Positions 20,453 through 30,637 of a stretch of DNA of 64,000 nucleotides are shown one piece after another. This DNA comes from a virus. Every line of letters starts with the position of its first letter. The first letter of the stretch is position 1. The DNA is taken from the IMG/VR virus record IMGVR_UViG_3300028827_000129, positions 1-64,000 of that record; one strand, given 5' to 3'. A program made the position numbers and the translations under genes. A model generated the notes under the pieces. The model worked only from the letters and a program-made list of their open reading frames with translations, did no database searches and had not been told where the DNA came from.

Positions 20453-21355
20453 CTACTTAGTTGTCTTCTTTTTAACTGGCTTGAGCTTTAACTTTGGTTT
20501 TGCTTTTAACTTAAGCTTTTTTAATGTAACCTTTTTTGTTTTTGTAGGTTTAATAATCCGCTTTTTTAATGTTTCAGGGGTTACAATCCAATGCGGAAAG
20601 TTTTTAGAAATAGTTTCATTTTTACTGTCTATAGCTCTACCTAAACCAACAATACCTAAAGAGGCATGCATTGACATTGTGCTTATATTATCAGGATAAT
20701 TAGTAGCTAAAACATCGCCGAAAAATTGTTTTGGATGATAATTAAGAAAATTCTTAATAGCAGAATATGCATTATATAGATAAGATGCATCATTTGATCC
20801 ATAGAAAATGCTACTTTTGTTAAGTTTGATATCTTTTAGGAAATCGTTTAATGTCTTATTTTTATCATAAATTAAACAAGCTCTCAACAAAAGAGTATAC
20901 AAAGAAATCAAAGGAGGGCTTAAGGCCCAGTTTGACGGGCCTGTAAATACAACAGCAGGATGTTTACGACTAGGTGTCTCGAAAATTACTTCTTTTGCTT
21001 TTGTAAATTCCCATCCGAAACGTTTTTCAAATTGGTTAACAATATTTAGTGTGTTAGATGCCAAAGAAGAAATATCTTTTTTGGGATCAAATACTAATAT
21101 TCTTATTTTGTCAATATCCCAACTATCGTCTTTAGATGGATTAAATTTAAATCCATATATACTAATATGCTTATTATTAACCATACCATGGATTAAATCT
21201 TGAATAAAATCTTTGCAATACATGCTAACTGTTACAGCTTTATATTTTTGTTTTCCATTTTTACTATATGGATTCACAAGTACAAATTTGAGACCTGAAC
21301 TATAAATTTCAGCCAAAATATTATCAGCTTCTTCTTCTCTACATTTTACAATCAT
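20453..21355 (-). CDS. hypothetical protein of the ligase cluster (paralogue of 35379-36179)
   Basis: CKDFIQD, SLYTLLLR and SMHASLGI resemble CRGYIYD, SLFYVFFK and SLHNMGI. Confidence 0.6.
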   Translation of the reverse strand: MIVKCREEEADNILAEIYSSGLKFVLVNPYSKNGKQKYKAVTVSMYCKDFIQDLIHGMVNNKHISIYGFKFNPSKDDSWDIDKIRILVFDPKKDISSLASNTLNIVNQFEKRFGWEFTKAKEVIFETPSRKHPAVVFTGPSNWALSPPLISLYTLLLRACLIYDKNKTLNDFLKDIKLNKSSIFYGSNDASYLYNAYSAIKNFLNYHPKQFFGDVLATNYPDNISTMSMHASLGIVGLGRAIDSKNETISKNFPHWIVTPETLKKRIIKPTKTKKVTLKKLKLKAKPKLKLKPVKKKTTK

Positions 21356-22035
21356 ACCTTACTCCTTTCTAAAGTATTTTTAACTTTATTAAGGTTTAGT
21401 TTTAAATATTTTTCTAGACTATCTAAGAAGTAATTCCATCCTAAAGAATTTGGTTTCATCATTTCTGGATGATATTGTGTACCAAAAGCATTAATTTTTG
21501 GGAAATATGCTGCTTCATATTCTTTATCGACTTTTGGTACAGGATTTTTAAAGTCATCAAAAATATAAATATCTGATCTAGGCTTTTCAGCCCATGCTGT
21601 AATTACTGCTGAAGATGAAGGTTTTATCATTTGATGATGTGTACAATATGCATCAATAGTTTTACCTTCTATTGTTGTTAAATTATGTAGAATTCCTTCA
21701 TGATTATCAATATGTTGGTACATTTGCCCACCATTAATAACATTTAAAAATTGGAAACCTCTACAAATACCTGCAAGCTTAATGTTGTTTTTTATTGCTA
21801 ATTCAGCTACTTTAATATCGATATTATCTCTTTTGTCGCTATAATATGATGCAGCATTTTTACATCCATAAATAACAGGATTAATATCATGTCCACCAGT
21901 AAAAAGAATTAAATCTTTATCTTCAATTTGTTTTTCCATTGATTCTGTTGGGGAAAAATTTCTTACTTCTACATTGTAATCTCTGAATAAACAATTATAT
22001 GTTATAGAAGAAACAATAAGAATTTTCTTTTTCAT
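21352..22035 (-). CDS. class I glutamine amidotransferase-like / peptidase C26
   Basis: FTGGHDINP, GICRGFQ, HHQ, QYHPE. Confidence 0.9.
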   Translation of the reverse strand: MKKKILIVSSITYNCLFRDYNVEVRNFSPTESMEKQIEDKDLILFTGGHDINPVIYGCKNAASYYSDKRDNIDIKVAELAIKNNIKLAGICRGFQFLNVINGGQMYQHIDNHEGILHNLTTIEGKTIDAYCTHHQMIKPSSSAVITAWAEKPRSDIYIFDDFKNPVPKVDKEYEAAYFPKINAFGTQYHPEMMKPNSLGWNYFLDSLEKYLKLNLNKVKNTLERSKV

Positions 22036-22039
22036 ATTA

Positions 22040-22250
22040 CTCCTTTCTTCTTTTATATTCTCATTAAAAAAACCACATATAAGATTTATTTACTTATATG
22101 TGGTTTTTTATGAAGTCAATGCCGTAATGTTCATAAAATGTTAATTTTATGAACATGTAGGCATTGACTTGTATCTAACCTTCTTTTCTGTGGATATTAT
22201 TGTATGCCATGAAGCGATTCACTTCTGGCAATTGTCCATATAAAATAAAG
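22040..22250 (-). ncRNA. structured intergenic RNA, retron msr/msd-like candidate
   Basis: Three stacked hairpins (22191-22238, 22113-22170, 22066-22109) flanked by an 8-bp inverted repeat (22238-22245 / 22051-22058); shares two motifs with the RT leader. Confidence 0.55.
22066..22109 (-). terminator. possible bidirectional intrinsic terminator (or 3' hairpin of the ncRNA)
   Basis: AAAAAACCACATATAAG-N9-CTTATATGTGGTTTTTT perfect stem with U-tract. Confidence 0.6.
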
Positions 22251-22252
22251 TA

Positions 22253-23023
22253 TTAACTATTTGCTTTTACATATTCAGTAAGATGACGTACAAAGCGATC
22301 TGCTGTTGTCTCTTTATCAGGATTATCTATAAAATGACTCATACTTGGTGCAGTATTTACTTCTAATACGTAACATTGATCAGGGTCATCAACAGGAACT
22401 AAAATATCTACTGCACCAAATAGAAAACCAAGTTCTTCAATTACATCTTTTGCTAGTTGTCTTATTTTCTTCTTTTTAACAGTGCCGTCATTTTCGACGG
22501 CAAAAAATCTATATCCATTAGCATAATTCTTTATTGGGTTAATTGGGTTAGTTTCTTCTGTAGGCTTTTTTTCTGTAAATTTAATTGACTTTCCATTAAA
22601 AACAAAAACTCGAAATTCTCGATTGTCTTCAATAAACTTTGTAGAGTAGGCATAACCTTCATCGTATAGCTTTTCTAATTTTTGTTTAGTAAAGCAGATT
22701 TTAAAATTATTGCCTCCCTGATGAGCTCCTTTTCTAACAACTCTTGGGAAATCGTCAGGTTGCCAATCTCTTTCTTCGCCTTTTATATGTACATCAATCA
22801 TTTTATCTCTTATCTTCTTGATATCGTCAAGTTTTTCTCTTTTAATTCCCCAAGGGACTTCAAAGTAGTTTTCAACTTCAATAATCTTTTTTACAGTATC
22901 ATTTTTTAGTTCTTCTTCCTTTAGTGCAATTGCTTTAAATCCTTCAATATTATTGATTTTTTCTGCTAAAAGATTTGCAGTTACATTAGTTTTCTTAGTA
23001 CGCTTTAACAAAACCTTATACAT
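22253..23023 (-). CDS. ATP-grasp (RimK-like) ligase
   Basis: REFRVFVF, FGAVDIL, VLEVNTAPS. Confidence 0.88.
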   Translation of the reverse strand: MYKVLLKRTKKTNVTANLLAEKINNIEGFKAIALKEEELKNDTVKKIIEVENYFEVPWGIKREKLDDIKKIRDKMIDVHIKGEERDWQPDDFPRVVRKGAHQGGNNFKICFTKQKLEKLYDEGYAYSTKFIEDNREFRVFVFNGKSIKFTEKKPTEETNPINPIKNYANGYRFFAVENDGTVKKKKIRQLAKDVIEELGFLFGAVDILVPVDDPDQCYVLEVNTAPSMSHFIDNPDKETTADRFVRHLTEYVKANS

Positions 23024-24086
23024 TTAATTCTTCTCCTTTCAAACTATCTGGAATTTCTAGTTTAACTAAGCAATGACCACAAATAGCTTCTGATAACATT
23101 GCATATGTTAATGTTTCGTGGCATTGTGTACATTCAAAGTCACTTTCTTTAACATAACATGTTTGACATATATGGATATCTTCTATATCTACACATTGTG
23201 CATGACTTTTACAATGGTCACATTGGCTATGACGCCAAATTTTATTTGATGAAGAATGTGATGTACTATACGTCTTTTTACTATAGCTAGTTCCTCCGTA
23301 AGAATAAGTCTTATTACTACTGTAATAATTACTGTTGCTGTTATAATATGTTGTGTATGGGAAATGAGCTTCTTTTTCTAATCCATCTTTGCCTAAGATA
23401 ATTACTTTATCATTTGATACTTCTATAAAATGAAAATCATCATTATTAACAAACTTAAAACCTCTAAATTTTATTGAACAGATATGTTCTAAAAATGGCT
23501 TTTCTGAAGCAAAAAATACAATATCATTTTTCATATCCAGTAATAAATATAATGTTTTATTTCGCCTAAATAAATATAATTTATCAGGTTCTTTAACATT
23601 TAAGGCAGCAAAGGTTGCATCTCCTTTCATACTGCTAGCGTTATCTATAAATTTGTCAAATCCTAATTTATCTAATAGCATAGGTAAAATTATTGTATCA
23701 CTTTGAATATTATTTGGTACTTTTACATTATATTGTTTTTCTAATTCTTTAACATTATTGATTTTTCCGTTATGCACAACAGCCCAATTATTAAAAATCA
23801 TAGGATGGTTATTATCATTATTTTCAGCTTTTGCTCCAGTACTTGGATTTCTTGTATGTAAAATTGCTACAGAAGGCAAATTCTTTGTAAAATTTTCCCA
23901 GATTTCTGTTTTCATAAGTTCATCAGAACTTTTAGGTTCTTTGAAAAATAACATTTTATCTTCATGAATAAATGCAGTTCCTGAAGCTTCTTTTCCTCTT
24001 TGTCCAGATAAAGAAAACATTATTTCAAGATCTACAACTTTCGGCCTTTTATCACCAAAACATTTATAACCTAATATTCCACACAT
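23016..24086 (-). CDS. class II glutamine amidotransferase (Ntn) with C-terminal Zn finger
   Basis: MCGI, RGKEASG, HTR, NNHP, HNGKI, SDT, FASE. Confidence 0.9.
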   Translation of the reverse strand: MCGILGYKCFGDKRPKVVDLEIMFSLSGQRGKEASGTAFIHEDKMLFFKEPKSSDELMKTEIWENFTKNLPSVAILHTRNPSTGAKAENNDNNHPMIFNNWAVVHNGKINNVKELEKQYNVKVPNNIQSDTIILPMLLDKLGFDKFIDNASSMKGDATFAALNVKEPDKLYLFRRNKTLYLLLDMKNDIVFFASEKPFLEHICSIKFRGFKFVNNDDFHFIEVSNDKVIILGKDGLEKEAHFPYTTYYNSNSNYYSSNKTYSYGGTSYSKKTYSTSHSSSNKIWRHSQCDHCKSHAQCVDIEDIHICQTCYVKESDFECTQCHETLTYAMLSEAICGHCLVKLEIPDSLKGEELNV

Positions 24087-24102
24087 TTATCTCTTCCTTT
24101 CT

Positions 24103-25293
24103 TTATTTATATTCGTTATCTTTTTCAAAAGCTGTTTCATAAAGCTTATAAAGATCTGTATCGTATTGAGACGATACGGGTTTATAAGTAGCTGTAGTTG
24201 TTGTTGTCACTTTATTATTAAGAATATATGTGTATCCATGCTCATTAGATGCTTTTGTCTTTCCTCGTAAAAGTTTTTTAATTGGTTCTGATATATTTAT
24301 TGGATGCTTTGTATTATTAGGTTGTAACTTAGACTTTTGTTTTTCAGATGCCGATATATCTTCAGATGATAAATTAAGTAGATAATCAAATAAATATTTT
24401 AATCTGCTAAGCGATATTTGATCTTTAGTCATGTGTATTGCTTCTCGTATTGCATATGTGATACCTACACCAATATCAAATTTACGTAATGGTTGGTCAT
24501 ATAAATAAACATTAGGAAATAGCTTTAAGATAGAATCGACATCTTTCATCTGTTTTATTATCTTTTCTGAAGTTCTAATTACTATATGAGCATCTGAAGG
24601 GTATGTAGATGATTGTGTAGTAATACCAAATACCTTAATCCTATAAGTACTGCTAAAATCTACAAATGATGAAGATATAAGATTCATAACTTCATCTAAA
24701 AAATCATCATCAATATTCCATTCAACAGCATATTTATTTATTTTTTTATCTTTGGTTTGCGGAGTTATTGTTAATTTTGCTGGTTTTATTTTAACGAATT
24801 CTGGTGGTTTATCGGTATTAAATTTTGAAACAAAATTTAATATATCATCTTCAGATACATTAACTTCATTATTTTCTACAGATAAGGTTGCTTTACAATT
24901 AATACACACTATTGAATCTTTATAACCAGATTTTAATTGATCTAAGAAGAATAATCCATTACAAGTATCGCATCGTCGATAATATTGGCCAAAACATTTA
25001 TAACATATAATTTTGCCAAGATAATTATAGTATTGACCTTCCTTCCATGTTCTCCCACAATATGTGCATGCCTTGTATGTTAAACATTCTTTACAATGGA
25101 TATCATTGCTAGCATTAATAGCTTGTATATCATCTACTGTGTGCAGTGTTAAACATTTTTTACAATAAAACATGTCTGTATATCTTTTACAGTGTTTACA
25201 ACGGATTAACTTACCAGTTTCTTCTTCAATAGCTTTTATATTAAGTTCTATTTTGCCGTTACAAAAACAACAAATTGCAATTGTCTTTTCCAT
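24103..25293 (-). CDS. multi-Zn-finger protein
   Basis: About 8 CxxC pairs in the N-terminal 135 aa; C-terminal part resembles 27168-27647. Confidence 0.7.
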   Translation of the reverse strand: MEKTIAICCFCNGKIELNIKAIEEETGKLIRCKHCKRYTDMFYCKKCLTLHTVDDIQAINASNDIHCKECLTYKACTYCGRTWKEGQYYNYLGKIICYKCFGQYYRRCDTCNGLFFLDQLKSGYKDSIVCINCKATLSVENNEVNVSEDDILNFVSKFNTDKPPEFVKIKPAKLTITPQTKDKKINKYAVEWNIDDDFLDEVMNLISSSFVDFSSTYRIKVFGITTQSSTYPSDAHIVIRTSEKIIKQMKDVDSILKLFPNVYLYDQPLRKFDIGVGITYAIREAIHMTKDQISLSRLKYLFDYLLNLSSEDISASEKQKSKLQPNNTKHPINISEPIKKLLRGKTKASNEHGYTYILNNKVTTTTTATYKPVSSQYDTDLYKLYETAFEKDNEYK

Positions 25294-25295
25294 AT

Positions 25296-26129
25296 TTAAA
25301 TCCAGTACTCCTTGATATCATCATTCCATTTTAAAGGCAATGAATTAATAGTTTTTTCTAAAACTGTAAGAAATACTTTTTTATCTTGAAAAAAATTCTT
25401 TTCGCTTAATTGGATAATCAATCCTAACTTTTCTTCATTTGTTGTTGCATTTCTTAGAGTTGTACATATTTTATTTAAATTTTGTGGTGTAATAGTAACA
25501 TTTGCCTCAAATGGAGTATCAATAGTTTTAATTTCTCCTATTTCTGTTCCGATAACAATATTATATGCTAAAGCTATATACAGATAAGACACTTGTGGAC
25601 TTAAAAGCCAGCTTCCTGGGGTTCTATATTCAAAATGATTAGTACCTTTAGTTCTATAATCTCCTAAATTTCCATAAACATTACCTCCTCCATTATGATG
25701 AGGAGCACCATTATTTCTTCTTTTTCTTTTTTCTTCTTTAGGATCTATTAATTCACTTAATAATTCAATGTAAATATCTAAATTTTGAACTATTGTACGA
25801 ATTTTGCTGGAAGTAACACCAGCAAAATGAATATGACCCCCAAGAGGTTTGTTCTTCTTATAATGCCCAGCTAGCCAATTTAATTGTGTCAATGTGCCAT
25901 TTTTAAAATCTAATCCTTTTGTATATGCTTGTTCAAAAACATTCTTAATTCTGGCAATCATTTCAAATGGAGTAGAAGCTACTCCAGGCCTAAGTTCACA
26001 AATAGGTGGATGACCATCACACCCAAAAGCTACAGTTTTATTTTTAGTTAAAATTGTATGAGCTGGTATTAGTACATTATTTTTATCTGTAAAAACAATT
26101 TCTGGGTCGCAACCTACAAGCAGATCCAT
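25296..26129 (-). CDS. phiEco32-like COOH-NH2 ligase type 2 (second copy)
   Basis: VGCDPEI, FGCDG, ELRP, LGGHIHF, YGNLGDYR, FEYRTPGSWL. Confidence 0.9.
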   Translation of the reverse strand: MDLLVGCDPEIVFTDKNNVLIPAHTILTKNKTVAFGCDGHPPICELRPGVASTPFEMIARIKNVFEQAYTKGLDFKNGTLTQLNWLAGHYKKNKPLGGHIHFAGVTSSKIRTIVQNLDIYIELLSELIDPKEEKRKRRNNGAPHHNGGGNVYGNLGDYRTKGTNHFEYRTPGSWLLSPQVSYLYIALAYNIVIGTEIGEIKTIDTPFEANVTITPQNLNKICTTLRNATTNEEKLGLIIQLSEKNFFQDKKVFLTVLEKTINSLPLKWNDDIKEYWI

Positions 26130-26142
26130 CTTACCTCCACAT

Positions 26143-27168
26143 TTAATGAACTAAGTCTTTATTACAATTTTCACATTTTTTATTTTTATTTAAAGGATTA
26201 TAACAAATTTTACAGTAATCTATTTGGTGGAAAGCATCAAAGCATTCTTTGCAAACAATTTGATTTTGTAGAAAATATTTTTTTCCATAAAAAACATCTA
26301 GACAAGAGTCGCAAATATTACCTTTTCCATTTTTAATTCTTTTTTCATACCAACTTTCATAATTCTCATGATTATGCAAATAAGAACTATTACTGTATTT
26401 ACCCTTCTTGACATCAACATCATAAAAAGAAATTGTGTCTCTATATAGATAATCGAACGTCATTTGCTGTTGTAATCCATTTTCATTAATGATTAAACAA
26501 GTGTTTTCACTAACCTCTTGAATATCTTTTGATGGTATAACAAAATTTCTCCATAAAGATTTTCCATTTAGATGGTATAAATATTTCTTAAGCGAAGCAA
26601 AATAAAATATATCATTGATTCTATCATAAAGATAGAATAATGGCCTTTCTTTACGATGTATAATTAACGAATAAGGATTTTCTTTATGATACATTGCAAA
26701 TGTTACAGCACCATTTAGTTGCTTTAAATACGACATTCCTTTTTCAACACCATAATGATCAAATAACCAAGCTATAGAAGCACTATCAACTTTTAGTTGC
26801 AAATTCATCCCATGCCATTCTCTAACAGCTTCATTGTTCATGAGAGTACCATTATGAACTAAAATAGTTTTCTCTAGTTTGATCGGATGATTATTTGTAT
26901 TATCTGATGAACTTCCTACACTACTTTTTCTGGCATGAAGAATCATTGTTTTTGGCAACTCTTCAAGTTTTTTCCAACGTTTTGTTTTTACAAAATCTGA
27001 TGCTTTTAATGGAGCTTTATAAACTATAAAATCTTTTTTATGTTCTGAATAATAACCAAATCCAGAGGCATCTTCTCCTCGTTCTTGTAAATATATAAAT
27101 AACTTCGTCAATAGCTGTTTGTCTGGACGCTTTTCTCCAAAACAATAATAACCTGCAATTCCGCACAT
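26143..27168 (-). CDS. class II glutamine amidotransferase (second copy)
   Basis: MCGIAG, RGEDASG, HAR, NNHP, HNGTL, VDS, FAS. Confidence 0.9.
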   Translation of the reverse strand: MCGIAGYYCFGEKRPDKQLLTKLFIYLQERGEDASGFGYYSEHKKDFIVYKAPLKASDFVKTKRWKKLEELPKTMILHARKSSVGSSSDNTNNHPIKLEKTILVHNGTLMNNEAVREWHGMNLQLKVDSASIAWLFDHYGVEKGMSYLKQLNGAVTFAMYHKENPYSLIIHRKERPLFYLYDRINDIFYFASLKKYLYHLNGKSLWRNFVIPSKDIQEVSENTCLIINENGLQQQMTFDYLYRDTISFYDVDVKKGKYSNSSYLHNHENYESWYEKRIKNGKGNICDSCLDVFYGKKYFLQNQIVCKECFDAFHQIDYCKICYNPLNKNKKCENCNKDLVH

Positions 27169-27647
27169 TATTCACATACCGCCTTTACTAATTTTTCTAT
27201 TTTATCAAAATGTTTTTTACGTGTATCTAAATCAAACGCAATAGCATGATTACGTTTTACAACAATAATATTTATAGAATCGCCAAAAACGGAATATATT
27301 TTTTTCTTTATGTGTGTATTGTAGCCAATTGCTATAGTTCTATCTAATCTATTTTTTAATCCATAAACATGGATTCTCCCTTTAAAATTGTATTTTTTAA
27401 ATAGGTCTGCAATTTCTTTTGCTTTTTGGTGCTTTGCATTATATGTAACTCTAGTATTTATATCAACCATTGCCGACTTTAATTTTTTGTCAGGTTTTAT
27501 TGGCTTAGCTATATTAGTCAAACGTTTATATGCTTTTTCATAAGAGCTATCTGTAAGCATATCTTTTATATTATCAAAAATAATAGTTTTTCTTTTATTA
27601 AAGTTTGTTTCAAATTCATCTGGGTTTATAGAAAATTTTGTATTCAT
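27168..27647 (-). CDS. hypothetical protein directly downstream of the RT
   Basis: 159 aa; 1 nt from the RT stop and overlapping the GATase start. Confidence 0.7.
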   Translation of the reverse strand: MNTKFSINPDEFETNFNKRKTIIFDNIKDMLTDSSYEKAYKRLTNIAKPIKPDKKLKSAMVDINTRVTYNAKHQKAKEIADLFKKYNFKGRIHVYGLKNRLDRTIAIGYNTHIKKKIYSVFGDSINIIVVKRNHAIAFDLDTRKKHFDKIEKLVKAVCE

Positions 27648-27648
27648 T

Positions 27649-29184
27649 TTAACCCTCTTTATATTTTTCTAACATTTTTTCAACTAATTTACTTTGTTCA
27701 TTATTGATAAGTTTAACAAAAGACATAAAACCATCTACATTGTATGTATCAGGATTGGATTTAATAAATCCTCTCCAAGCATGCATTGTTTTTCTTGGTA
27801 TCCTTAATGTTCCATCTTCATGAACACTGATACCATTAACATTTACATATGGGTAAGTCATAATTTTAAATTTATGTTTATTAATTGGTATATCTAGATA
27901 ATTAACAAAGAAACTTGTTAATTGTTTTTTGAGTTGTAATTTTTCTTCTTTATTAAGTTTCTTAGATAATGATATTGTAATATCATCAACATATCTTGTA
28001 TATGCAACCATTTTTGCTTTTGTTGCTCTGTATATAAGTTTGCGTAAAAAATTTATATACTTTTGTTCTATTCTAGACATGACAATATTAAAAATATATG
28101 TTGACGTAGGACTGCCAATGGGTAAAATAAACCCATTATTATTTGGTAATATTGTGTAATCAATAATTTTAGACGATATTAAACTAGTAAATCTTGAATG
28201 GATTAAACGTTTATAAATACGATTTCTATTCCCCATTAAAATATTATGAAAAGCATTTTTTATATCAACTTTTACCCAAGTTATTGGAGCATTCTTTTTA
28301 CTGAAATGATATTTGATAGCATCAACCATATTTCTGTTTTTAACTCCTCCATAGCTATATTTGCCAGGAGAAATATTTTTATAAAGTATTTTTAAGATAT
28401 CACGTTGTAAATTTTTAATATTTTCATTTGGCTTATGAATAAATCTAATACCTCCATTGCTTTTTTTGATAAAATATGTTTTATAAAGTTTATTTATTGC
28501 AACTCCATCAACATTGTTATCTTTAAATGACTGTGATAAGATAATAGTATTATCCAAATCTTTTTTAAAATTATGTTTACCACTCTTAACATATGTATAT
28601 ACTGAAATAAATTGATCTAGTAATGCTTTTATGACATCCCAAGATTGATCTATCTTTTTATTTTTCTTAAGATATTTTAATTTCTGTTTATGAACATTAA
28701 AATCTATTTCTTTCCCATTAATATAAATAGTTATGGCTAAAAGAGACATGAATTGATATCCTAATGTATTAAAAAAATTCATATTTATTACTTCATTATC
28801 ATTTTTTTGTATAAATTGTATTATATTTTCGTAAGACTCTCCATTAGTTTTTTCAATAACATCTTTTAATTGCAAATCTTTATACTTATCAGGAATAGTT
28901 CCATTTTTTATATGTGTGGCAATTTCATAAAACAGATTTGCTTGTTTTATATCAGAATCATTAAACCAATCCATAAATGCTTTTTTATATATATTTAAAA
29001 CTTGTATTTCCATTTTAGACAAAGAAATTTCTGGTTGTTTTTTTTCTGTATCTGGCCATTTTAAGATATAGTAAAACAATGTAATTGGACTGCAAGTATA
29101 GAACCTTTTGTCATTATAAAGTTTTACTGCCATGTTTCTTAAATTTAAATAATTTATCATACTACTATATTTTTTCTTTTGCAT
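27649..29184 (-). CDS. reverse transcriptase, retron-like, with a ~230-aa N-terminal extension
   Basis: IKKSNGGIRFIHKP, SYGGVKNR, AIKYH (region X-like), KVDIKNAF, LPIGSPTS, YTRYVDDITIS, INKHK, VNG (VTG-like). GGAGG 5 nt upstream of the ATG at 29184 suggests this start rather than 29211. Confidence 0.88.
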   Translation of the reverse strand: MQKKKYSSMINYLNLRNMAVKLYNDKRFYTCSPITLFYYILKWPDTEKKQPEISLSKMEIQVLNIYKKAFMDWFNDSDIKQANLFYEIATHIKNGTIPDKYKDLQLKDVIEKTNGESYENIIQFIQKNDNEVINMNFFNTLGYQFMSLLAITIYINGKEIDFNVHKQKLKYLKKNKKIDQSWDVIKALLDQFISVYTYVKSGKHNFKKDLDNTIILSQSFKDNNVDGVAINKLYKTYFIKKSNGGIRFIHKPNENIKNLQRDILKILYKNISPGKYSYGGVKNRNMVDAIKYHFSKKNAPITWVKVDIKNAFHNILMGNRNRIYKRLIHSRFTSLISSKIIDYTILPNNNGFILPIGSPTSTYIFNIVMSRIEQKYINFLRKLIYRATKAKMVAYTRYVDDITISLSKKLNKEEKLQLKKQLTSFFVNYLDIPINKHKFKIMTYPYVNVNGISVHEDGTLRIPRKTMHAWRGFIKSNPDTYNVDGFMSFVKLINNEQSKLVEKMLEKYKEG

Positions 29185-29194
29185 TAATTCCTCC

Positions 29195-29318
29195 ATTTTC
29201 GAACCTTTCATATTTTGAATTTATGAAAGGTTCAAAATTTAAAGCGTACTCTTTATTTGAGTACTAAATAAAGAAGAAAGCACTTAAGCGAAAACACTTA
29301 GGCTTATAAAAACTTTTT
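29195..29318 (-). ncRNA. structured RT leader / candidate retron-type ncRNA
   Basis: Hairpins at 29278-29305, 29250-29274 (9 bp) and 29196-29237 (12-bp core) fill the intergenic region. Confidence 0.5.
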
Positions 29319-29513
29319 TTATTTACTATAGCCGTTTGAACTCCATCCTACTCCACCTGGTTTTAAAATAAATGAAGTATTGACAATTATTTTTGTTGCT
29401 ATATTATTGCATTTTGGACATTTTGCCCAATTTCTTTCATCATAAATAGAACGTTGTAGTTCAAATTGATGTTTACATTTTGGATTATCACATGCAAAAA
29501 CATAAATTGGCAT
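29319..29513 (-). CDS. FmdB-family zinc-ribbon protein
   Basis: MPIYVFACxxxxCxHxFE...CPKC...GVGW; start adjusted to MPIY. Confidence 0.85.
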   Translation of the reverse strand: MPIYVFACDNPKCKHQFELQRSIYDERNWAKCPKCNNIATKIIVNTSFILKPGGVGWSSNGYSK

Positions 29514-29851
29514 TTTAAATTCCTCCATTATGTTTTTCTTTTCGCTTTATAGGATATGTGTTTAAAATATCATTTAAAACTTGTAATAAAGTTTTCTTGT
29601 CCTTTTTTAACTCTTCTGGCCATACATAAAATGCAGTATTTCCTTTGTCTTTTATGCCTTTTACTTTAAATCGGATTCTTTTTGTTGAATATAAAGGAAT
29701 AATTTCTTCTATAACAACTTCTCTCTTTTTTGCAAATGCTACTTTTGGATCATAATAAAATGTTTTATATAATAATTTATTTTCTGCAAAAGCTACTTGT
29801 TCATAAAATAATTTATTATTTTCCATCTTAATTTTCTTTTTTTCTCTTATT

Positions 29852-30637
29852 TTATTTAATCTCTTTAATGAACGCCTGAATGATCTTGAGACAATCATCA
29901 TTAAACATTTCCTCTGGGTGCCATTGCACTCCAATAGCTAAAACGCCATCTTTTGTTGACTCAATTGCTTCAATCACATTATCAGATGGGCTTCTAGCTA
30001 TAATATTAATATCAAAATTACTTGGAGATTCTTTCCATACAATCTTATTATTTTTATTTCTGATTGGAACTGTGCAATCAATAGCCTGATGATGCATAGA
30101 ATTTACCCATGTTATATCTTTTTGTAATGCTTTGTAAAGAAAACTGTTTTGGGCAATTTTGATTTTATGCGTAGCTACTGAGCGAATTTGTGTCTGCATA
30201 TGTCTTGCAGGACTATCTACAAATTCTCTAATATCTTGCCATAATTGACATCCATGAGCCACCCCAATGATTTGATGTCCACGACAAATGCCTAAAATTG
30301 GCTTCTTTCTTTCAATACATCTTTTAGCTAGATAAATTTCAAATTCATCTCTTTTAGGTAATCCTTGTGTGCAATTTCTATCTTCTTCTCCATAGTAAAT
30401 TGGGACAATATCATGTCCACCAGAAAGCAAGATTGCATCCATAGAGTCAATAATTTGATCAACATATTTATCTTTTTCTTCTTTTGCCCAAGTTGTAACA
30501 TCAAAAAATTCAGATGGGATTAAAACTGATGCTGCACCAGCAGCTTGTACGTATTTAGCGTATGCTTTGTTTACAGAAATTTTAGGGATATCCTTAACGT
30601 CTCTCATTACAGGAGTTGTAATACCAATAGTAACCAT
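29852..30637 (-). CDS. gamma-glutamyl-gamma-aminobutyrate hydrolase-like peptidase C26
   Basis: LSGGHDI, GICRGHQ, VNSMHHQ, GVQWHPE. Confidence 0.92.
   Translation of the reverse strand: MVTIGITTPVMRDVKDIPKISVNKAYAKYVQAAGAASVLIPSEFFDVTTWAKEEKDKYVDQIIDSMDAILLSGGHDIVPIYYGEEDRNCTQGLPKRDEFEIYLAKRCIERKKPILGICRGHQIIGVAHGCQLWQDIREFVDSPARHMQTQIRSVATHKIKIAQNSFLYKALQKDITWVNSMHHQAIDCTVPIRNKNNKIVWKESPSNFDINIIARSPSDNVIEAIESTKDGVLAIGVQWHPEEMFNDDCLKIIQAFIKEIK

What the first reader, a model, noticed from the sequence alone, without database searches (positions are those of the whole stretch)
22040..29318. Phage retron-like RT with two related structured non-coding elements, inside a peptide-ligase operon
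SEEN: a YVDD RT (27649-29184) with retron-like X/Y-region variants (AIKYH, VNG) and a ~230-aa unexplained N-terminal extension. It is tightly coupled to a 159-aa gene and to GATase/COOH-NH2 ligase/ATP-grasp genes. The only two sizeable gaps in this block (29195-29318 and 22040-22250, ~7 kb apart) are both packed with hairpins. They share two motifs in the same order on the minus strand: (1) GCC-t-AAGTG-tttt-CGCTT-aa-GTGC vs GCC-ag-AAGTG-aat-CGCTT-cat-GGC; (2) a long hairpin capped by TTCATAAATT..TATGAA vs TTCATAAAATT..TTATGAA. I found no third exact copy of motif 1 by eye. KNOWN: retron RTs recognise an msr stem-loop, copy an msd hairpin, and pair with an effector; they are mostly bacterial defence systems. 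INFERENCE: a phage RT system with two cognate RNAs (or one ncRNA plus an autoregulatory leader mimic), possibly controlling the peptide-modification enzymes or making decoy DNA.
Basis: partly seen in the sequence, partly recalled or inferred. Interest (0 to 1): 0.92.

Follow-up and report, generated by a model that had tools for sequence, protein, structure and literature searches.

The report
Phage retron-like RT with twin hairpins
A large, apparently virulent phage carries a very divergent retron-type reverse transcriptase at the head of a seven-gene amidoligase operon, and the small RNA hairpin found at both ends of that operon also occurs beside three of the enzyme's seven examined relatives, so it is probably the RNA the enzyme recognises.

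Summary
Window 27649-29184 (-) encodes an intact retron-clade RT. Its catalytic residues are kept, and so are the signature H of region X and G of region Y. It also has an orphan 230-aa N-terminal domain. It heads a tightly packed operon: RT, a 159-aa ORFan, GATase, COOH-NH2 ligase, a 396-aa ORFan, GATase and ATP-grasp. This lies in a 170-kb phage with no integrase.

The only two gaps, A (29185-29318) and B (22036-22252), are strongly structured (z = -5.5 and -10). Plain alignment finds no similarity between them. Both nevertheless carry an 11-bp bulged hairpin with the same apical AAGUG/CGCUU stem, including a U.G pair. Exactly 63 nt downstream, both carry UUCAUAAA in the 5' arm of a long hairpin.

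The new evidence is comparative. The RT falls in a small, unclassified retron-like clade, and the same hairpin lies on the RT sense strand in 3 of 7 relatives' loci (0.12 expected, P = 2.6e-4). A sixth base pair covaries.

The hairpin is therefore most likely this RT lineage's cognate RNA stem-loop. B has a retron-like layout plus a terminator. A looks like a leader that hides the RT's ribosome-binding site. cDNA synthesis, the template and any link to the amidoligases remain untested.

The parts
27649..29184 (-). Reverse transcriptase gene (511 aa from the ATG at 29184; the ORF is open to 29211). The RT domain is encoded by 27649-28494 and the orphan N-terminal domain by 28495-29184.
   Evidence: Pfam RVT_1 at 2.4e-18. 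Best PADLOC model is retron RT II-A at 96.8 bits. NCBIfam retron St85 scores 99.5 bits against a cut-off of 235. hhalign of the C-terminal 281 aa against a retron RT profile gives 100% probability, E = 2.5e-43; the N-terminal 230 aa give 0.2%. D307, Y398-V-D-D401, G357, S361, H293 and G451 are conserved.
29185..29318 (-). Element A, the structured leader directly upstream of the RT. It holds hp1, alternative hairpins, hp3 and an anti-SD tract.
   Evidence: MFE -37.9 kcal/mol, z = -5.46. Inverted repeats are listed.
29278..29305 (-). A-hp1: an 11-bp bulged hairpin with apical stem AAGUG/CGCUU (U.G wobble) and a UUUU loop, followed by a U-rich tract.
   Evidence: z = -3.18 on its own. Scores 19.7 bits on covariance model R1.
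29246..29274 (-). Two mutually exclusive small hairpins in A: GUACUC/GAGUAC (29246-29264) and UCUUUAUUU/AAAUAAAGA (29250-29274).
29197..29237 (-). A-hp3: a 16-bp hairpin with one U.G pair. UUCAUAAA (29220-29227) sits in its 5' arm and loop. It ends 2 nt before the SD.
   Evidence: I2, 94% complementary.
29173..29194 (-). SD GGAGG (29190-29194), the start codon (29182-29184) and the first Lys codons. This stretch can pair with the pyrimidine tract 29259-29279 that follows hp1, an anti-SD pairing.
   Evidence: The MFE pairs UCUUCU with GGAGGA. One search lists I3 (21 nt, 71%) and I20 (10 nt, 90%).
27168..27647 (-). 159-aa ORFan. Its start lies 1 nt after the RT stop codon, and its last base overlaps the next gene's start by 1 nt.
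   Evidence: Coordinates. No family hit. No homologue. Only a weak DHHA1-like resemblance in the Atlas (TM 0.45, model pLDDT 0.56).
22253..27168 (-). The rest of the operon: GATase_6 (26143-27168), COOH-NH2 ligase (25296-26129), 396-aa ORFan (24103-25293), GATase_6 (23016-24086) and ATP-grasp (22253-23023).
   Evidence: The two GATase_6 paralogues are 29% identical.
22036..22252 (-). Element B, the structured gap at the 3' end of the operon. It also sits directly upstream of the next gene, a Peptidase_C26 GATase at 21352-22035.
   Evidence: MFE -69 kcal/mol, z = -10.06.
22238..22248 (-). B 5' closing repeat (a1-like, UUAUUUUAUAU), followed by G22237 and G22236.
   Evidence: I8: 10 of 11 complementary to 22048-22058. 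Only 2.75% of random 227-nt segments and 2 of 30 gaps reach this. The helix is present in the centroid fold.
22205..22230 (-). B-hp1: an 11-bp hairpin with a bulged A, apical stem AAGUG/CGCUU and an AAU loop.
   Evidence: z = -4.22. Scores 20.8 bits on R1.
22113..22170 (-). B-hp2: a 58-nt hairpin (11 bp, a 3x3 internal loop, 13 bp, a UAAC loop). UUCAUAAA (22146-22153) sits in its 5' arm, 63 nt after CGCUU exactly as in A.
   Evidence: (I1).
22066..22109 (-). B-hp3: a perfect 17-bp hairpin with a 9-nt loop, followed by a U run. It has the form of an intrinsic terminator.
   Evidence: (I2, 100% complementary).
22048..22058 (-). B 3' closing repeat (a2-like, AUAUAAAAGAA). It lies after the U run and just before the SD of the next gene.

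Best explanation
This is a phage-borne member of a small, unclassified, deeply branching retron-like RT lineage. The bulged hairpin with the AAGUG/CGCUU stem (hp1) is that lineage's cognate RNA stem-loop, most likely the site the RT recognises on its RNA.

The phage has two copies on the operon's sense strand.
- Copy B closes the operon. It sits in a domain laid out like a retron msr-msd RNA: an 11-nt closing repeat, G, hp1, a long stable hairpin, a second hairpin and the complementary repeat. B is the better candidate for the RNA that is bound and copied.
- Copy A sits in the RT's own leader. A pyrimidine tract just after hp1 can pair with the SD and start codon. RT binding there would plausibly set the RT's own translation, that is, autoregulation.

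Shown here: RT clade membership, the structures, the A-B relation and the association of the hairpin with the RT lineage. Inferred: RT binding, reverse transcription of B, autoregulation through A, and any functional tie to the amidoligase genes.
For: 1. The RT is intact and retron-type. All 9 PDB hits are retron RTs. Retron models are the best hits in PADLOC and NCBIfam. hhalign against a retron RT profile gives E = 2.5e-43. The catalytic residues and the signature H293 and G451 are kept.
2. It is the only RT in the genome. A and B are the only non-coding stretches in its operon.
3. hp1 occurs only at A and B in 170 kb. Both copies are on the sense strand. Both keep a U.G pair that would be an A.C mismatch on the other strand, and both have a bulged A on the 3' side.
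4. Motifs 1 and 2 are in exact 63-nt register in A and B. Only about 1% of gap pairs show any such register.
5. In a tree of the 84 nearest representatives, the RT sits in a clade of 9 with support 0.90, and its sister is P0063. The motif pattern had been fixed, before any relative was examined. It is found on the RT sense strand in 3 of the 7 relatives: L020, L023 and L027. None lies on the antisense strand. Expected 0.12, Poisson P = 2.6e-4, and 0 of 3000 shuffles reach 3.
6. The next base pair, which was not used to pick the hits, pairs in 5 of 6 copies as C-G, G-C or U-A. An A follows the stem at +2 in 4 of 6.
7. The sister locus L020 also has two copies. One is in the roughly 200-nt structured region directly upstream of its RT (z = -5.9).
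8. The relatives' neighbours are unrelated to amidoligases. The hairpin therefore travels with the RT.
9. B's closing repeat is unusual for this genome (P about 0.03). B's order of parts matches the msr-msd description in PMC7736814.
Against: - There are no expression, cDNA or binding data, and no RNA run holds the locus.
- hp1's position in relatives is inconsistent: upstream of the RT, inside the RT ORF twice at non-homologous codons, and after a strong terminator downstream of the RT. In wider folds of L023 and L027, hp1 is not part of the MFE structure.
- Only 7 relatives could be examined. Three of them have short flanks, and inner tree supports are moderate (0.84 and 0.70).
- B lies 5.4 kb from the RT, whereas known retron ncRNAs are contiguous with the RT cassette (PMC7736814).
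- B's a2-like repeat lies after a canonical terminator, and the repeat is made only of A-U pairs.
- A is contiguous with the RT but has no convincing a1/a2 closure around hp1.
- Region X reads A-I-K-Y-H rather than N-A-x-x-H, and region Y reads VNG rather than VTG.
- No recognisable retron effector is present.
- No Rfam family matched, msr included.
Confidence: 0.5

Rival explanations
1. A and B are paralogous cis-regulatory leaders of two successive operons in the amidoligase cluster: the RT operon and the Peptidase_C26 operon. A trans factor other than the RT reads them, either a protein such as the upstream FmdB-type zinc-ribbon gene product or a metabolite. It would control translation at A through SD sequestration and termination at B through hp3. 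This would resemble the repeated PyrR-binding attenuators of the Bacillus pyr operon.
For: Each element lies directly upstream of a gene start. A has mutually exclusive hairpins and an anti-SD pairing. B carries a canonical terminator with no room for a promoter before the next gene, so read-through must be regulated or leaky. The 63-nt register suggests one duplicated module.
Against: The hairpin recurs beside related RTs in loci that have no amidoligase genes and no zinc-ribbon neighbour in common. This model does not predict that. No riboswitch or leader family matched. B shows no clear antiterminator that disrupts the G+C core of hp3.
Confidence: 0.2
2. The two gaps hold ordinary, unrelated features. 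A would be a 5' UTR with stabilising hairpins. B would be an RNase III-type processing hairpin plus the operon's terminator. The shared motifs, and the hits in relatives, would be coincidence.
For: No alignable similarity: rank 389 of 946 and no blastn-short hit. The spacer is 31% identical, which is background. Short shared words are common in this A+T-rich genome: 52% of gap pairs share a gapped 5+5 word and 44% share an 8-mer. With loops of up to 40 nt and both strands allowed, the relatives' hits (4 against about 2 expected) would not be significant.
Against: A G+C-rich identical hairpin top is shared by only 3 of 946 pairs. Two words in register occur in only 9 of 946 pairs. The pre-defined pattern on the sense strand gives P = 2.6e-4 in relatives. 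The sixth pair covaries and an A recurs at +2.
Confidence: 0.13
3. hp1 and the downstream hairpin mark the ends of a 7-kb cassette that moved into the amidoligase cluster. A and B would be direct-repeat junctions left by recombination, comparable to the promoter/stem-loop cassettes that shuffle genes among T4-type phages. They would not be working RNA elements.
For: A and B are direct repeats in the same order, flanking a block whose proteins have no relatives (the RT N-terminal domain, the 159-aa and 396-aa ORFans, and a divergent ligase). Paralogous Peptidase_C26 genes lie on both outer sides. The RT segment has slightly lower G+C, 23-24% against 28-30%.
Against: The repeats share only about 18 nt and are not otherwise alike. 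The genome has no recombinase and no other copies. The strand-specific U.G pairs and the RT-lineage association point to RNA function.
Confidence: 0.07

Closest known systems
Bacterial retrons (RT + msr-msd ncRNA + effector; for example Ec83, Ec78, Ec86 and the St85 family)
   Same: The RT domain is of the retron clade, with the conserved H of region X and G of region Y (definitions from PMC7736814). A small stem-loop is specific to the RT lineage, as expected for the msr stem-loop that retron RTs recognise. Element B has closing inverted repeats, a G after the 5' repeat, one short hairpin and then a long stable hairpin.
   Different: The RT scores far below every retron family cut-off (99.5 against 235 bits; about 97 bits where ordinary retron RTs score 150-390). 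It has a 230-aa N-terminal domain with no relatives. It lacks a known effector. The retron-like RNA candidate lies 5.4 kb downstream, at the end of a metabolic operon, instead of next to the RT. A second hairpin copy sits in the RT leader. The host is a 170-kb phage without an integrase.
Retrons carried by temperate phages and satellites (my recollection: Ec73 on retronphage phiR73 and Ec67 on a P2-like prophage; a preprint reports retrons as frequent in myovirus genomes, 10.1101/2024.10.26.620412)
   Same: A retron-type RT encoded on a phage genome.
   Different: Those are complete, classifiable retrons on temperate elements and act as host defence. This one is unclassifiable, lies inside an early-region amidoligase operon of an apparently virulent phage, and has no match in 50,697 deposited phage records.
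Phage phiEco32-type amidoligase clusters (COOH-NH2 ligase, class-II GATase, ATP-grasp, GGACT, gamma-glutamyl hydrolase; my recollection: described by Iyer, Aravind and colleagues, 2009)
   Same: The surrounding genes at 19.5-32.3 kb are exactly this set. The outer ligase has 318 phage homologues.
   Different: No RT has been reported with such clusters: a full-text search for the combination found no paper. The inner ligase and the 396-aa protein have no phage homologues.
Repeated protein-binding attenuator leaders (for example the PyrR sites of the Bacillus pyr operon; my recollection)
   Same: The same small hairpin is repeated in a leader and in an intercistronic gap of one gene cluster. 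One copy precedes a terminator and the other precedes a sequestered SD.
   Different: Here the hairpin tracks an RT lineage across unrelated gene contexts, and no regulator of that kind is evident.

Membership tests
Retron | RT belongs to the retron/retron-like RT clade by sequence | tested here: met
   All PDB hits are retron RTs, with Ec83 best at 2.4e-12. The top 18 PADLOC models are retron RT types. hhalign against a retron RT profile gives E = 2.5e-43.
Retron | Region X NAxxH (H most conserved) and region Y VTG (G most conserved), as defined in PMC7736814 | tested here: met
   H293 matches a column that is H in 82 of 83 sequences. G451 matches a column that is G in 79 of 83. The less conserved positions differ: A-I-K-Y-H instead of N-A-x-x-H, and V-N-G instead of V-T-G.
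Retron | Contiguous msr-msd ncRNA: terminal inverted repeats, branching G, 1-3 short msr hairpins and a long msd stem-loop | tested here: inconclusive
   A is contiguous with the RT but has no closure around hp1. B has the full layout but lies 5.4 kb from the RT. Its a2-like repeat follows a terminator, and the repeats are A-U only.
Retron | Production of msDNA (RT-DNA primed from the 2'-OH of the branching G) | not testable with these tools
   No RNA run was listed, and only low-depth DNA contigs from one sample were available.
Retron | Assignable to one of the 13 retron types by RT and effector | tested here: not met
   The best model scores about 97 bits, whereas relatives score 150-390. 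NCBIfam gives 99.5 bits against a cut-off of 235. The inner-clade RTs are also mostly below 1e-55 on every type model. The coupled 159-aa protein matches no effector family.
hp1 hairpin family (defined here) | Sense-strand hairpin AAGUG-loop(3-6)-CGCUU with a U.G pair, a sixth covarying pair, and location beside an RT of the 9-member clade | tested here: met
   Copies: A, B, L020 1806-1818, L023 1840-1854 and L027 2317-2332. P = 2.6e-4. The sixth pair is formed in 5 of 6 copies with 3 pair types. Covariance model R1 finds no other copy in 219 kb and none in the outer-clade loci L029-L032.
Phage amidoligase (phiEco32-type) cluster | COOH-NH2 ligase together with class-II GATase, ATP-grasp, GGACT and gamma-glutamyl hydrolase genes | tested here: met
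   Pfam PF14395 twice, PF13522 twice, PF02655, PF06094 and PF07722 twice.
Intrinsic terminator (B-hp3) | Stable hairpin immediately followed by a U run on the transcribed strand | tested here: met
   A 17-bp perfect stem followed by a U run. Function was not tested.

The most novel reading that the evidence does not exclude
The two related elements could be the functional ends of an RNA that the RT copies as a whole or in part. The RT would load on hp1 at the 3' element B of the 7-kb operon transcript. The 5' copy A, with the same hairpin and the same 63-nt register, would serve as the stop or transfer site. The unit would then be a retron-derived retroelement that makes cDNA of a metabolic operon, or uses terminal repeats as retroviral R regions are used, rather than a short msDNA. 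A milder version is a virulent phage using a retron-type RT and its RNA as an offensive or regulatory device tied to peptide-ligase chemistry.
Probability: 0.07. Interest if true: 0.92.

Novelty: new variant of a known kind. Interest (0 to 1): 0.68.

Why it matters
Retrons are known as bacterial and prophage defence systems, with the template RNA next to the RT and a toxic effector. Here a retron-type RT from a previously unclassified lineage sits in an apparently virulent 170-kb phage. It is fused to a new domain and co-transcribed with amidoligase genes of unknown role.

Its lineage-specific hairpin is present twice, at the two ends of the operon. If the hairpin is the RT's recognition site, three things follow:
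- It gives a handle, a 6-bp stem with a U.G pair and a bulged A, for finding the templates of a whole orphan RT lineage.
- It provides a first example of a retron-like RT whose RNA partner is separated from it by kilobases.
- It provides a possible case of RT autoregulation through a leader copy of its own target.

It would also give the long-unexplained phage amidoligase clusters an experimentally tractable partner.

Tried and rejected
- Close relatives. There is no nucleotide or protein match for the block, the RT, the 396-aa protein or the inner ligase among deposited phages. IMG/VR holds no relatives of the RT, the 396-aa protein, the C26 GATase or P0063. Metagenome and GTDB scans for P0077, P0103 and P0018 returned only P0103 itself.
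- Exhaustive HMMER. The only near hit is a 140-aa fragment of the same gene on an 855-bp contig that is identical across element A. No covariation could be taken from close kin.
- Rfam. No family matched at gathering or E-value thresholds except tRNAs elsewhere and noise.
- Combined motif scan. A pattern scan of IMG/VR for both motifs in register gave 8 hits. All look like chance, mostly in coding sequence, and none has an RT nearby.
- Structure. A single-sequence AlphaFold model of the RT was unusable (pLDDT 38.9). The Atlas gave nothing for the N-terminal domain and only a weak DHHA1-like hint for the 159-aa protein.
- Sequencing runs. No RNA holder was listed. The four DNA runs, all from one sample, gave short identical contig pieces with no variants or joints.
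- Degenerate second RT domain. The idea that the N-terminal extension is a degenerate second RT domain, as in the tandem-RT protein P0007, was rejected (hhalign probability 0.2%).
- Promoter readings of CGCTT. I compared the motif by eye with sigma-70, Bacteroidota and MotA-box consensus sequences recalled from memory. None fitted, and a promoter motif would not occur only twice in 170 kb.
- Precursor peptide in B. A 20-aa sense ORF exists at 22094-22156 but has no SD and lies inside hp2.
- GAGUG/CGCUC variant. The copy upstream of the P0103 RT (L025/L026) came from a relaxed search whose chance expectation is about 1, so it is not counted as support.

Full report
Setting. The window is the first 64 kb of a 170,083-bp IMG/VR virus record with terminal repeats, estimated 100% complete. 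It carries tRNA genes, and PHROGs finds a DNA polymerase encoded by two adjacent genes, ribonucleotide reductase and NAMPT. No tyrosine or serine recombinase was found, so it is probably virulent. The region of interest lies in a minus-strand block at about 28% G+C. That block belongs to a larger amidoligase cluster at roughly 19.5-32.3 kb. The cluster holds two COOH-NH2 ligases, two class-II GATases, an ATP-grasp, a GGACT, two Peptidase_C26 genes, a deaminase and zinc-ribbon proteins.

The observation. The RT ORF is 27649-29211. GGAGG followed 5 nt later by the ATG at 29184 marks the likely start. Gene spacing from the RT to the ATP-grasp gene ranges from an 8-nt overlap to a 16-nt gap. The only non-coding stretches are A (29185-29318) and B (22036-22252). 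Both fold far better than shuffled controls, with z = -5.46 and -10.06. Within the 64-kb window, perfect hairpins of 9 bp or more in non-coding DNA occur at only six places, and four of them are in A and B.
- A contains a weak A/U hairpin, hp1 and two mutually exclusive small hairpins. It also has a 16-bp hairpin (hp3) that ends 2 nt before the SD, and a pyrimidine tract just after hp1 that can pair with the SD, the AUG and the first codons.
- B contains hp1, a 58-nt hairpin (hp2) and a perfect 17-bp hairpin followed by a U run (hp3), which has the form of an intrinsic terminator. An 11-nt inverted repeat (10 of 11, all A-U) closes the whole domain.

The RT. Residues 231-511 form a complete retron-type RT domain. 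hhalign against a profile of the nearest RTs gives 100% probability and E = 2.5e-43. All nine PDB sequence hits are retron RTs, and the best PADLOC and NCBIfam models are retron RTs. In an alignment with 83 relatives, D307, Y398-V-D-D401, G357 and S361 are conserved. So are H293 of region X and G451 of region Y, the residues that Mestre et al. call the most conserved retron signatures (PMC7736814). The enzyme is nonetheless an outlier. It scores about 97 bits where ordinary retron RTs score 150-390, and 99.5 bits against an NCBIfam cut-off of 235. An exhaustive HMMER search of 1.84 billion representatives found nothing closer than E = 3e-20, apart from a fragment of the same gene. The N-terminal 230 aa match nothing and are not a degenerate RT domain. 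The coupled 159-aa protein and the 396-aa protein are also ORFans. This is the only RT in the genome.

Are A and B related? By ordinary measures they are not. The pair ranks 389 of 946 intergenic pairs by local alignment, blastn-short finds nothing, and short shared words are common in this A+T-rich genome. Three more specific tests say otherwise.
- The apical 5 bp of hp1 (AAGUG/CGCUU, with a U.G pair) are identical. Only 30 of 946 gap pairs share any identical 5-bp hairpin top, and only 3 share a G+C-rich one.
- The motif occurs nowhere else in 340 kb of sequence, counting both strands, including relaxed and covariance-model searches.
- The distance from CGCUU to UUCAUAAA is exactly 63 nt in both, and in both the octamer lies in the 5' arm of a long hairpin. 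Only 9 of 946 pairs have any two shared words in register at least 30 nt apart, and one of those is a tRNA pair.
The 58-nt spacer is only 31% identical, which is background. If A and B are paralogues, only the structured parts have been kept. The U.G pairs in hp1 (both copies) and in A-hp3 make the structures specific to the sense strand.

Comparative evidence. Close relatives do not exist, so I placed the RT domain in a tree with its 83 nearest representatives. It falls in a clade of nine with support 0.90, and its sister is P0063 (0.84). Most of the tested members, like the phage RT, score poorly on all retron type models. I fetched the contigs of seven clade members and searched them with the pattern that had been fixed earlier. 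AAGTG-N(2-6)-CGCTT is present on the RT sense strand in three of the seven:
- L020 1806-1818
- L023 1840-1854
- L027 2317-2332
None lies on the antisense strand. Under a first-order Markov model, 0.12 hits are expected in the 26,684 nt searched. That gives Poisson P = 2.6e-4, and 0 of 3000 shuffles reach three hits. The copies fold locally as hairpins. The next base pair outward, which was not part of the search pattern, is formed in 5 of 6 copies as C-G, G-C or U-A. An A follows at +2 in 4 of 6, matching the bulged A in A and B. The flanks are also alike: GCC or CC lies within a few nucleotides 5' of AAGUG in A, B, L023, L027 and L020. The sister locus holds a further copy in which an 18-nt hairpin replaces the loop. 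That copy lies in the roughly 200-nt structured region directly upstream of its RT (z = -5.9). Two RT loci from the next clade out, and a more distant tandem-RT locus, have no copy. The neighbours of the relatives' RTs have nothing to do with amidoligases. The hairpin therefore tracks the RT lineage, not the operon's metabolic genes.

Interpretation. The simplest reading is that hp1 is this lineage's cognate RNA stem-loop, the counterpart of the msr stem-loop that retron RTs recognise. B then has the canonical order of a retron ncRNA as described in PMC7736814: closing repeat, G, short hairpin, long stable hairpin(s), closing repeat. Its closing repeat is unusual for this genome, since only 2.75% of random segments and 2 of 30 gaps match it. 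A lacks such closure. Instead it couples hp1 to a fold that hides the RT's SD and start codon, which suggests autoregulation.

I put 0.5 on the core claim that hp1 is the RT's RNA partner and that A and B are RT-linked RNAs. I put about 0.3 each on the sub-claims that B is the copied template and that A is an operator.

Weaknesses.
- hp1's position in relatives varies: upstream of the RT, twice inside the RT ORF at non-homologous codons, and once behind a strong terminator downstream of the RT.
- In wider folds hp1 is not always in the MFE structure.
- The sample is seven loci.
- B is 5.4 kb from the RT, and its 3' repeat lies beyond a terminator. The next gene has no room for its own promoter, so some read-through must occur.
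- There are no RNA, cDNA or binding data.

Rivals. I considered three: a leader or attenuator pair read by another factor (0.2), coincidence on top of ordinary UTR hairpins (0.13), and junction repeats of a transferred cassette (0.07).

Novelty. Retron-type RTs on phage genomes are known (and my own recollection of the retronphages). A full-text search found no paper linking an RT with COOH-NH2 ligase clusters. No deposited phage has a similar RT. I therefore file this as a new variant of a known kind: an unclassified retron-like lineage with a defined hairpin. In this phage it has a new N-terminal domain, no known effector, and two hairpin copies bracketing a 7-kb metabolic operon.

Noticed in passing
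whole genome (G000:C1); L005 for 64-84 kb: G+C is uneven: 28-32% over 1-50 kb, 35-39% over most of 50-170 kb, and 49.7% at 70-80 kb, with many G+C-rich hairpins at 72-76 kb. This could reflect a mosaic genome or a chimeric assembly.
   Followed up: no
L005:17734-17883 (genome 81734-81883): Three tandem perfect hairpins with 23-, 15- and 16-bp stems lie in a non-coding stretch. The last two are related in sequence.
   Followed up: no
window about 28802-28808; L004: An independent 855-bp contig (ENA ERZ932974) is identical to the window across element A and the RT 5' part. The exceptions are one C-to-G change and an A run that is one base shorter, which would truncate the RT after about 136 aa. 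This is either an assembly error or a homopolymer on/off switch.
   Followed up: partly
window 22094-22156 (-): A 20-aa sense-strand ORF lies inside B-hp2. It has no SD, so it is an unlikely but possible substrate peptide for the neighbouring ligases.
   Followed up: partly
L003:6550-8709: The best-scoring hit apart from a fragment of the same gene (P0007, 719 aa, on a bacterial contig) carries two tandem retron-type RT domains and is followed by a protein kinase gene.
   Followed up: no
window 29266-29305 (-): A-hp1 is followed directly by a U-rich tract (CUUUCUUCUUUAUUU). It could also act as a weak terminator for the upstream zinc-ribbon gene at 29319-29528.
   Followed up: no
window 29852-30637 and 21352-22035: Paralogous Peptidase_C26 / class-I GATase genes lie on either side of the RT operon; the downstream one follows gap B directly, the upstream one is separated from gap A by two small ORFs (37% identity over 78 aa). 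This fits internal duplication of the amidoligase cluster.
   Followed up: partly
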